Source: Escherichia coli (GTDB taxonomy: Bacteria; Pseudomonadota; Gammaproteobacteria; Enterobacterales; Enterobacteriaceae). From it: a stretch of DNA of 64,000 nt. The position numbers were made by a program. This document shows, piece by piece, positions 12,001 through 15,000 of this stretch (its first letter is position 1; each line of letters opens with the position of its first letter). The stretch is taken from assembly GCF_030384885.1 (NCBI RefSeq), contig NZ_CP128613.1. One strand, given 5' to 3'.

Positions 12001-15000
12001 CACGGTAAAGAAGTTACCCAGCGATTTGGACATCTTCTCTCGGTCAACCATTACCATCCCCGAGTGCATCCAGTAGTTCACATACTGACCATCATGGGCA
12101 CAGGTGGACTGAGCGATTTCGTTTTCGTGGTGTGGGAACATCAGGTCTGAACCACCGCCGTGGATATCAAAGTGGTTACCCAACTGCTTGCAGTTCATTG
12201 CCGAACATTCAATGTGCCAGCCTGGACGGCCCGCGCCCCACGGAGACGGCCAGCTCGGTTCGCCCTCTTTCGACATCTTCCACAGAACGAAGTCCATCGG
12301 GTTGCGTTTGTCGTCGACCACGTCAACGCGCGCGCCCGCCTGCAGCTGGTCGAGATCCTGACGCGACAGCACGCCATAGGTTGGATCGGTCGGTACGTCG
12401 AACATCACGTCGCCGTTGTCCGCCACATAAGCGTGACCTTTGGCGATCAGTTGTTCAGTGAGTTCAATAATTTCTGCGATATGGTGCGTCGCGCGCGGCT
12501 CCATATCCGGGCGCAGAATGTTCAAAGCATCAAAATCTTTGTGCATTTCGGCGATCATGCGATCCACCAGCGCCACAAAGCTTTCGCCATTTTCATTGGC
12601 GCGTTTGATGATTTTGTCGTCGATATCAGTAATGTTGCGCACATACTTCAGCTTATAGCCGAGGAAACGCAGATAGCGCGCAACCACGTCAAAGGCAACA
12701 AAGGTACGCCCGTGACCGATATGACAGAGATCGTAAACGGTGATTCCACACACGTACATGCCGACTTCCCCGGCGTGAATAGGCTTAAATTCCTCTTTTT
12801 GGCGTGTCAGAGTATTGAAGATTTTTAGCATCGAAGATTCCGTTTAGACATGTGTGGGTAATTGAGTTGCGTATAATACCCATATTTCCCGCGCGAATCA
12901 GCATACATTGCGTGATGATCCGATCGTGCGGTTATGCTATAACACCACCCTATATATGACCCGAATCGGGTTGAAGCACCAATCAAACGGAACAGGATGC
13001 AAAAATGGTTACTTTCCACACCAATCACGGCGATATTGTCATCAAAACTTTTGACGATAAAGCACCTGAAACAGTTAAAAACTTCCTGGACTACTGCCGC
13101 GAAGGTTTTTACAACAACACCATTTTCCACCGTGTTATCAACGGCTTTATGATTCAGGGCGGCGGTTTTGAGCCAGGCATGAAGCAAAAAGCCACCAAAG
13201 AACCGATCAAAAACGAAGCCAACAACGGTCTGAAAAACACCCGCGGTACGCTGGCAATGGCCCGTACTCAGGCACCGCACTCTGCAACTGCACAGTTCTT
13301 CATCAACGTGGTTGATAACGACTTCCTGAACTTCTCTGGCGAAAGCCTGCAAGGTTGGGGTTACTGCGTGTTTGCTGAAGTGGTTGAAGGCATGGACGTG
13401 GTAGACAAAATCAAAGGTGTAGCAACCGGTCGTAGCGGTATGCACCAGGACGTGCCAAAAGAAGACGTTATCATTGAAAGCGTGACCGTTAGCGAGTAAT
13501 CGTGGCGACACTCTTTATTGCAGATCTTCATCTCTGCGTGGAAGAACCGGCGATCACCGCCGGTTTTCTGCGTTTTTTAGCGGGGGAAGCCCGCAAGGCC
13601 GACGCGCTGTATATTCTTGGCGATCTGTTTGAAGCATGGATTGGCGATGACGATCCCAACCCACTCCATCGCCAGATGGCCGCAGCGATCAAAGCGGTAT
13701 CCGATTCCGGCGTTCCCTGCTATTTCATTCATGGCAACCGTGATTTTCTGCTTGGCAAACGCTTTGCCCGTGAGAGTGGCATGACGTTATTGCCGGAAGA
13801 AAAAGTGCTCGAACTTTATGGTCGCCGGGTGTTGATTATGCATGGCGACACGCTGTGCACCGATGACATCGGTTATCAGGCTTTTCGCGCCAAAGTCCAC
13901 AAACCCTGGCTGCAAACGCTATTCCTCGCCCTGCCGTTGTTTGTGCGTAAACGCATTGCCGCGCGAATGCGCGCGAACAGCAAAGAAGCCAACAGCAGTA
14001 AATCGCTGGCGATCATGGACGTTAACCAAAACGCGGTGGTCAGTGCGATGGAAAAACATCAGGTGCAATGGCTGATCCACGGGCATACCCATCGCCCGGC
14101 GATCCATGAACTTATCGCCAATCAGCAACCTGCTTTCCGCGTCGTGCTGGGTGCCTGGCATACGGAAGGTTCAATGGTGAAAGTCACGGCGGATGACGTT
14201 GAGCTGATTCATTTTCCGTTTTAAATACCCGCAACTTTGCTGATTTCACAGCCACGCAACCGTTTTCCTTGCTCTCTTTCCGTGCTATTCTCTGTGCCCT
14301 CTAAAGCCGAGAGTTGTGCACCACAGGAGTTTTAAGACGCATGTCTTCCCGCAATAATCCGGCGCGTGTCGCCATCGTGATGGGGTCCAAAAGCGACTGG
14401 GCTACCATGCAGTTCGCCGCCGAAATCTTCGAAATCCTGAATGTCCCGCACCACGTTGAAGTGGTTTCTGCTCACCGCACCCCCGATAAACTGTTCAGCT
14501 TCGCCGAAAGTGCCGAAGAGAACGGTTATCAGGTGATTATTGCGGGCGCAGGCGGCGCAGCGCACCTGCCGGGCATGATTGCCGCCAAAACGCTGGTGCC
14601 AGTGCTGGGTGTGCCAGTACAGAGCGCCGCACTGAGCGGTGTCGATAGCCTCTACTCCATCGTACAAATGCCGCGCGGCATTCCGGTGGGTACGCTGGCG
14701 ATTGGTAAAGCTGGCGCGGCAAATGCGGCGTTACTGGCAGCACAAATTCTTGCGACTCATGATAAAGAACTGCACCAGCGTCTGAATGACTGGCGCAAAG
14801 CACAAACTGATGAAGTGCTGGAAAACCCGGACCCGCGAGGTGCGGCATGAAACAGGTTTGCGTCCTCGGTAACGGGCAGTTAGGCCGTATGTTGCGCCAG
14901 GCAGGCGAACCGTTAGGCATTGCTGTCTGGCCGGTCGGGCTGGACGCTGAACCGGCGGCGGTGCCCTTTCAACAAAGCGTGATTACCGCTGAGATCGAAC

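What the first reader, a model, noticed from the sequence alone, without database searches (positions are those of the whole stretch)
14254..14269. PUR box upstream of purEK
A 16-bp sequence ACGCAACCGTTTTCCT matches the PurR operator consensus with one mismatch, as expected for the purEK promoter.
Basis: partly seen in the sequence, partly recalled or inferred. Interest (0 to 1): 0.15.

Follow-up and report, generated by a model that had tools for sequence, protein, structure and literature searches.

The report
Known PurR operator at purEK promoter
This 16-base sequence is the well-known binding site where the purine repressor PurR switches off the E. coli purEK purine-synthesis operon; it is real and strongly conserved, but ordinary and already described.

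Summary
The 16-mer ACGCAACCGTTTTCCT is at 14254-14269 as reported. It lies in the 116-nt gap between lpxH and purE of an E. coli chromosome, 72 nt upstream of the purE ATG. Its reverse complement is letter-for-letter the purE-purK PurR motif found by ChIP-chip in K-12, and the promoter region is identical to K-12.

- **Chance:** A PWM built from the 27 other ChIP-bound sites ranks it first of about 128,000 positions in the window (19.5 bits). That is 4 bits above the next locus and inside the range of bound sites. Score alone is only moderately rare: 3-7% of shuffled windows reach it somewhere.
- **Decisive evidence:** Position and conservation settle it. A box-agnostic sample of purE genes shows a box of at least 17.4 bits upstream in 46/46 Enterobacterales and at least 15.5 bits in 11/12 Pasteurellales. 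Only 1/43 Firmicutes and 1/13 others reach 12 bits, and that one is evidently a mislabelled enterobacterial genome.
- **Promoter:** An extended -10 (TGnTATTCT) sits at an invariant 13 nt after the box, so the -35 position falls inside the box.
- **Mechanism:** Hypoxanthine/guanine-loaded PurR blocks RNA polymerase.

Already known; low interest.

The parts
14254..14269 (.). PUR box: 16-bp imperfect palindrome ACGCAACC|GTTTTCCT, operator for the LacI-family purine repressor PurR
   Evidence: Sequence read. It is the only match with at most 1 mismatch in the window and the top leave-one-out PWM score, 19.5 bits. It is identical to the K-12 ChIP-chip motif and conserved in 46/46 Enterobacterales.
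14261..14262 (.). Central CpG of the operator, the dyad centre. Crystal structures of PurR-DNA complexes place the hinge-helix kink here (established knowledge, not tested here).
   Evidence: Positions 8-9 of the 16-mer are invariant in all 48 distinct enterobacterial promoters and in all 28 ChIP motifs.
14263..14268 (+). Inferred -35 position of the purE promoter (TTTTCC, 3/6 to TTGACA, 17-bp spacer), lying inside the right half of the box
   Evidence: Inferred from the fixed position of the conserved extended -10. The TTGCTC just after the box is not conserved: it is TAGCAC in strain U15A. The strict promoter scan found no canonical -35/-10 pair.
14283..14291 (+). Extended -10 element TGcTATTCT (TGn 14283-14285, hexamer 14286-14291)
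   Evidence: TGnTAnnnT is present exactly 13 nt after the box in 47 of 48 distinct promoters. Mean major-allele frequency is 0.88, against 0.42-0.57 in the flanks.
14296..14300 (+). Inferred transcription start zone. It places the box at roughly -46/-42 to -31/-27.
   Evidence: Inference from the -10 position only. No experimental start site could be retrieved.
14325..14329 (+). Shine-Dalgarno AGGAG of purE
   Evidence: Sequence. CACAGGAG is conserved in relatives.
14341..14850 (+). purE (N5-carboxyaminoimidazole ribonucleotide mutase), first gene of the regulated operon
   Evidence: ORF. RefSeq annotation of the 100% identical record NZ_CP027579.1.
14847..15914 (+). purK (N5-CAIR synthase), second gene; its start overlaps the purE stop by 4 nt
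   Evidence: ORF; annotation.

Best explanation
The 16-mer at 14254-14269 is the PurR operator (PUR box) of the E. coli purEK operon.

A PurR dimer, a LacI/GalR-family repressor, binds this imperfect palindrome when loaded with its corepressors hypoxanthine or guanine. The box covers the -35 position and the DNA just upstream of it, in a promoter that relies on an extended -10 (TGcTATTCT, 14283-14291). Bound PurR therefore keeps RNA polymerase from initiating, and purE-purK are repressed when purines are plentiful and derepressed when they are scarce.

Basis of each step:
- Shown here: the sequence, its rarity, its identity to the K-12 site, its conservation, and its fixed spacing to the -10.
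- Taken from the literature: PurR occupancy in vivo, corepressor-enhanced binding in vitro, and derepression in purR mutants.
- Inferred: the exact start site, and that occlusion of the -35 region is the repressing step.
For: 1. Exact sequence at the stated coordinates between lpxH and purE.
2. The reverse complement equals the purE-purK motif AGGAAAACGGTTGCGT in the K-12 ChIP-chip table. That binding region had log2 enrichment 2.08 with adenine and 0.86 without, and the motif is at the same 72-nt distance from the ATG. The promoter is identical to K-12.
3. It is the only consensus match with at most 1 mismatch: 0 of 100 shuffles have one. It has the top leave-one-out PWM score, 19.5 bits, ranking 17th of the 28 ChIP motifs even when left out of the matrix.
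4. purE loci were sampled by a coding-sequence pattern that does not look at the box. In the 300 nt upstream, the best site is at least 17.4 bits in 46/46 Enterobacterales and at least 15.5 bits in 11/12 Pasteurellales. Only 1/43 Firmicutes and 1/13 other taxa reach 12 bits. Control 300-nt windows reach 12 bits in 0.25-1.5% of cases, with a maximum of 18.0 in 1,312 enterobacterial windows.
5. In a box-anchored alignment the only other conserved block is the extended -10, at invariant spacing.
6. In about 1,000 E. coli genomes and in E. albertii the upstream flank is replaced by another sequence. Homology resumes 1-3 nt before the box, which stays intact.
7. purR is present in 5,424 of 5,426 complete E. 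coli genomes.
8. Published EMSAs show PurR binding the purE promoter, enhanced by guanine or hypoxanthine (PMC12858057). purE-purK EMSA and purR-deletion RNA-seq exist for Y. pestis (PMC10673613). PurR sites generally lie between -35 and -10 (PMC3159470).
9. No Rfam family matches the gap, so an RNA element does not compete as an explanation.
Against: - The PWM score alone is not overwhelming: 3-7% of shuffled 64-kb windows reach it somewhere.
- No binding or expression experiment was or could be done on this strain.
- The window does not contain purR, and I did not look it up in the source genome itself.
- The transcription start, and hence the -35 overlap, is inferred from a conserved -10 and not from a mapped 5' end. 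The strict promoter scan returned nothing.
- Box-column conservation in the anchored alignment is partly circular, because the sequences were anchored on the box. The non-circular test is.
Confidence: 0.96

Rival explanations
1. Chance resemblance: a 16-mer that happens to look like a PUR box and has no regulatory role.
For: With 3 mismatches allowed, consensus matches are at chance level. 3-7% of shuffled windows contain a site with as high a PWM score somewhere.
Against: The site lies in the one 116-nt gap where it is expected (about 1e-4 jointly). It is identical to a ChIP-bound K-12 site. It is retained upstream of purE in 46/46 Enterobacterales and 11/12 Pasteurellales while flanks diverge to 0.42 major-allele frequency.
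Confidence: 0.005
2. The conserved block is only a promoter element (the -35 region or an upstream polymerase contact) and is conserved for RNA polymerase, not for a repressor.
For: The -35 position for the conserved extended -10 falls inside the box, so part of the conservation could reflect polymerase contacts.
Against: The left half, ACGCAAC (about -44 to -38), lies upstream of the -35 hexamer yet is as invariant as the right half. TTTTCC is a poor -35 (3/6). The whole 16-mer fits a matrix built from 27 unrelated PurR-bound loci. ChIP and EMSA show PurR on this promoter. The block is absent from purE promoters of taxa without this regulon.
Confidence: 0.02
3. The box is mainly the target of another LacI-family regulator with a similar operator. 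One candidate is RbsR, which I recall from memory as reported to bind some pur promoters. PurR would then be secondary.
For: LacI-family operators share the central CG palindrome architecture. Nothing in the sequence alone distinguishes paralogous regulators.
Against: The matrix used was derived from PurR ChIP regions only, and the site scores in the upper-middle of them. PurR occupancy is adenine-responsive at this locus. Purified PurR shifts the purE promoter with guanine or hypoxanthine dependence. No evidence for another regulator at purEK was found in the papers read.
Confidence: 0.015

Closest known systems
PurR operator of purEK in Escherichia coli K-12 MG1655 (ChIP-chip motif at 552,395-552,410 in the coordinates of PMC3159470)
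   Same: Identical 16-mer, identical surrounding promoter from 26 nt upstream of the box to the purE ATG, and the same 72-nt distance to the ATG.
   Different: Nothing in the element itself. The only difference nearby is a 1-nt indel and one substitution just after the lpxH stop codon.
Other PUR boxes of the E. coli pur regulon (purF, purHD, purT, purL, purMN, purC, glyA and others)
   Same: 16-bp imperfect palindrome with central CG, located in the promoter region and bound by PurR with hypoxanthine or guanine. The score (19.5 bits) lies inside their range of 11.9-25.5.
   Different: It carries C rather than A at position 7 and T rather than G at position 13. The C7 is itself conserved in 85% of distinct enterobacterial purE promoters. 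Unlike purB and purR, whose sites lie in the coding region, this one lies over the -35 region.
purE-upstream PUR boxes of Pasteurellales (Haemophilus, Rodentibacter, Aggregatibacter)
   Same: Same gene, same kind of site, 15.5-21.4 bits, about 90-107 nt before the MGSKSDW codons.
   Different: More symmetric sequences (for example AAGCAAACGTTTGCTT) and a shorter distance to the gene. One species of 12 (Cricetibacter) lacks a detectable box.
PurBox / PurR of Bacillus and other Firmicutes
   Same: Shares the name and the physiological purpose, repression of purine synthesis genes.
   Different: It is an unrelated repressor whose effector is PRPP, with a different DNA motif. In line with this, purE upstream regions of 43 Firmicutes show no LacI-type PUR box: 1/43 reach 12 bits, close to the control rate.

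Membership tests
PurR (LacI/GalR family) operator, PUR box of the enterobacterial pur regulon | 16-bp imperfect palindrome matching the consensus (A)CGCAAACGTTTNCNT with a central CpG | tested here: met
   ACGCAACCGTTTTCCT has 1 mismatch to the classical consensus and CpG at positions 8-9. 5 of 8 position pairs are self-complementary, read directly from the sequence.
PurR (LacI/GalR family) operator, PUR box of the enterobacterial pur regulon | Weight-matrix score within the range of experimentally bound sites and above local background | tested here: met
   The leave-one-out PWM gives 19.5-19.6 bits, against 11.9-25.5 for the 27 ChIP motifs. It is the top of 127,970 window positions, with the next locus at 15.4. 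Window-wide shuffle p is 0.03-0.07.
PurR (LacI/GalR family) operator, PUR box of the enterobacterial pur regulon | Located in the promoter region of a purine or nucleotide metabolism gene, overlapping the polymerase binding region | tested here: met
   It lies 72 nt upstream of the purE ATG. A conserved extended -10 sits 13 nt downstream at fixed spacing, placing the -35 position inside the box. The start site itself is inferred, not mapped.
PurR (LacI/GalR family) operator, PUR box of the enterobacterial pur regulon | Conserved upstream of the orthologous gene in taxa that have the regulator, and absent in taxa that do not | tested here: met
   46/46 Enterobacterales and 11/12 Pasteurellales have the box. 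1/43 Firmicutes and 1/13 others reach 12 bits, the latter evidently an enterobacterial MAG.
PurR (LacI/GalR family) operator, PUR box of the enterobacterial pur regulon | Physical binding by PurR, enhanced by hypoxanthine or guanine, and PurR-dependent repression of the downstream operon | not testable with these tools
   Literature on the identical K-12 sequence and on close relatives: ChIP-chip with an adenine-enhanced signal (PMC3159470), EMSA with guanine or hypoxanthine (PMC12858057), and Y. pestis EMSA plus purR-deletion RNA-seq (PMC10673613).
PurR (LacI/GalR family) operator, PUR box of the enterobacterial pur regulon | The cognate repressor gene purR is present in the same genome | tested here: inconclusive
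   purR is not in the window. The K-12 purR gene matches 5,424 of 5,426 complete E. coli genomes, but the source strain's record was not checked individually.
Operator of another LacI-family regulator (e.g. RbsR, CytR) | Better fit to that regulator's own matrix than to PurR's, and binding by that protein | not tested
   No matrix or binding data for these regulators at purEK was retrieved. It was considered only as a rival.

The most novel reading that the evidence does not exclude
The box may serve two overlapping functions, which would explain its near-total invariance across an entire bacterial order.

- It would be both the PurR operator and the only upstream polymerase contact (the -35 region) of an extended -10 promoter.
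- Its conserved non-consensus C at position 7 would then be selected to set a sub-maximal repressor affinity, rather than being drift.
- Because no terminator-like structure separates lpxH from the box, bound PurR could also act as a roadblock to read-through from ppiB-lpxH.

None of this would change the classification of the element.
Probability: 0.3. Interest if true: 0.15.

Novelty: already known. Interest (0 to 1): 0.05.

Why it matters
It confirms that the first-stage reader can recognise a textbook operator from raw sequence, and it anchors the annotation of the purEK promoter in this strain. Biologically it adds nothing new. PurR control of purEK has been known since about 1989-1990 and has been re-confirmed by ChIP-chip and EMSA.

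The modest extra value lies in two comparative results:
- The identical 16-mer, including its one non-consensus base, is kept across Enterobacterales.
- The 16-mer keeps a fixed spacing to an extended -10, which supports repression by occlusion of the -35 region.

Tried and rejected
1. The strict sigma-70 promoter and terminator scan of 14100-14450 returned nothing. The promoter was instead located by phylogenetic footprinting.
2. The original papers (He et al. 1990, PMC213288; Tiedeman et al. 1989, PMC209574) are not held. The classical consensus and start-site mapping could therefore not be read at source. The consensus was taken from later papers that quote it.
3. A search for 'purEp' / 'purE promoter' gave mostly irrelevant hits.
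4. Attempts to get an experimental purE start site from supplements failed. The Cappable-seq and Shigella dRNA-seq supplements had no occurrences, and the ChIP-chip paper has no supplements held.
5. A paper search for PurR plus folD was swamped by the word 'fold'.
6. The Rfam scan found no RNA family in the lpxH-purE gap, only REP-type naRNA4 matches downstream of purK. A riboswitch or leader RNA reading was dropped.
7. My naive estimate of the box-to-ATG distance in other species, by ORF extension, gave unreliable values and was discarded.
8. I did not look up purR in the source strain's own record. The species-wide count was judged sufficient.

Full report
**Observation.** Window 14254-14269 reads ACGCAACCGTTTTCCT, exactly as reported. 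It lies in the 116-nt gap between an ORF ending at 14224 and an ORF whose annotated ATG is at 14341. A megablast of 13900-14700 against complete E. coli genomes found a match in 5,425 of 5,426 genomes. One is 100% identical (NZ_CP027579.1, strain 2013C-4282), where the flanking genes are annotated lpxH and purE-purK.

**Is it more than chance?**
- The classical consensus ACGCAAACGTTTTCNT with at most one mismatch occurs once in the 64-kb window and in none of 100 dinucleotide-preserving shuffles. With three mismatches allowed, matches are at chance level.
- I built a weight matrix from the 27 other PurR motifs in Table 1 of the K-12 ChIP-chip study (PMC3159470), leaving purEK out.
- The site scores 19.5-19.6 bits, depending on the background model. 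That is first of 127,970 positions, 4 bits above the next locus, and inside the 11.9-25.5 bit range of the ChIP motifs. The exact per-position p is 1.5e-7.
- Score alone is only moderately rare. 35 of 500 dinucleotide shuffles and 15 of 500 mononucleotide shuffles of the window reach that score somewhere.
- Combined with the position, one specific 116-nt gap out of 64 kb, the joint chance is about 1e-4.
- 'One mismatch' holds for the consensus quoted in PMC3266220 and for the SwissRegulon consensus quoted in PMC4576408. Against the ChIP-derived consensus the site has two mismatches, and against the RegPrecise palindrome three.

**Identity with the known site.** The reverse complement, AGGAAAACGGTTGCGT, is letter-for-letter the motif listed for the purE-purK binding region in K-12. 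That region had log2 enrichment 2.08 with adenine and 0.86 without. The motif is 72 nt from the purE ATG in K-12, as it is here. The window is identical to MG1655 from 26 nt upstream of the box through the ATG.

**Comparative test.**
- I scanned one genome per species (GTDB representatives) with a degenerate DNA pattern for the purE coding motif [10 protein letters not shown]. This pattern carries no information about the box.
- I took the 300 nt upstream of the match and applied the leave-one-out matrix. The best site is at least 17.4 bits in 46 of 46 Enterobacterales, mostly the identical 16-mer. It is at least 15.5 bits in 11 of 12 Pasteurellales.
- Only 1 of 43 Firmicutes and 1 of 13 other taxa reach 12 bits. 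The one 'other' is a MAG labelled Proteobacteria whose promoter is plainly enterobacterial.
- Control 300-nt windows from the same loci reach 12 bits in 0.25-1.5% of cases. None of 1,312 enterobacterial control windows exceeds 18.0 bits.
- The Firmicutes have a PurR of an unrelated type and serve as a natural negative control.

**Promoter anatomy.**
- I aligned 48 distinct enterobacterial promoters without gaps, anchored on the box. The flanks are essentially unconserved: mean major-allele frequency is 0.42 upstream and 0.57 in the 13-nt spacer.
- The one other conserved block is TGnTATnCT, an extended -10. It is present exactly 13 nt after the box in 47 of 48 promoters. In the window this is TGcTATTCT at 14283-14291.
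- With a 17-bp spacer the -35 position is 14263-14268 (TTTTCC, 3/6 to consensus), inside the right half of the box.
- The TTGCTC that follows the box is not conserved; it is TAGCAC in strain U15A.
- The simple promoter scanner found nothing because the -35 is weak.
- I infer a start near 14296-14300, which puts the box at roughly -45 to -29. No mapped 5' end could be retrieved.
- In about 1,000 E. coli genomes and in E. albertii, a 330-nt hypothetical ORF sits between lpxH and purE. Homology with the window resumes 1-3 nt before the box, which is intact. This is a natural demonstration of where the functional promoter begins.

**Mechanism.**
- Established knowledge of the family: PurR is a LacI/GalR-type dimer that binds a 16-bp palindromic operator only when loaded with hypoxanthine or guanine. 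Most of its sites lie between -35 and -10 and block initiation (PMC3159470; PMC10912719).
- Published EMSAs show PurR binding the purE promoter, enhanced by guanine or hypoxanthine and not in a ligand-pocket mutant (PMC12858057).
- purE-purK EMSA and purR-deletion RNA-seq are reported for Y. pestis (PMC10673613).
- purR is present in 5,424 of 5,426 complete E. coli genomes.
- The best explanation is therefore corepressor-dependent occlusion of the -35 region of an extended -10 promoter. This represses purE-purK when purines are abundant.
- Binding and repression rest on the literature for an identical sequence. The occlusion step is inferred from the spacing.

**Rivals.**
- Chance is excluded by position and conservation.
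- 'Promoter element only' fails for two reasons. The left half-site, upstream of the -35, is as invariant as the right. The whole 16-mer also fits a matrix from unrelated PurR-bound loci.
- Another LacI-family regulator cannot be excluded as an additional binder, but nothing supports it as the main one.
- No Rfam family matches the gap.

**Verdict.** This is the already-described purEK PUR box. Interest is low.

Noticed in passing
window 9722-9737 (+), codons 8-13 of folD (ATG at 9701): GGTAAAACGATTGCGC is the second-best PurR matrix hit in the window (15.4 bits, p 2.4e-6), a score about half of shuffled windows reach. The identical 16-mer is kept in 10 of 11 other Enterobacterales folD genes, including Serratia, Yersinia and Erwinia. 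However, the first 14 codons of folD are all poor in synonymous change, and folD is not in the K-12 PurR ChIP-chip table. I recall from memory (unverified) that folD was once predicted as a PurR target by comparative genomics. Inconclusive.
   Followed up: partly
window 15919-16151, between purK and ybcF: A cluster of REP/BIME-type palindromic repeats. Rfam naRNA4 (RF02564) scores 73 bits at 15986-16064 (-), with weaker copies at 15919-15963 and 16086-16151.
   Followed up: no
L125 (E. coli U15A, NZ_CP035720.1) 703-1032; L012 (E. albertii); corresponds to window ~14225-14251: About 1,000 of 5,425 E. coli genomes and E. albertii carry a 330-nt hypothetical ORF (WP_001188440.1) inserted between lpxH and purE. 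The breakpoint is 1-3 nt upstream of the PUR box, which stays intact. The nature of the ORF was not examined.
   Followed up: partly
window 14292-14301 (CTGTGCCCTC), just downstream of the -10: The G+C-rich discriminator and start region is unusually conserved (mean major-allele frequency 0.79; GCCCT nearly invariant) across 48 enterobacterial purE promoters. This hints at a further constraint, such as stringent-control discriminator or start-site selection. Not explained.
   Followed up: no
window 14260 (position 7 of the box): The single departure from consensus (C instead of A) is itself conserved in 85% of distinct enterobacterial promoters. It is A in Edwardsiella, Plesiomonas and Xenorhabdus, and T in Citrobacter, Budvicia and Pluralibacter.
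   Followed up: partly
window 13900-14700: Only 3 of 5,425 E. coli genomes are at least 99% identical to this 801-bp stretch; the rest are 95-99%. The lpxH-purE coding sequence of the source strain is therefore a relatively uncommon allele, even though the promoter is identical to K-12.
   Followed up: no
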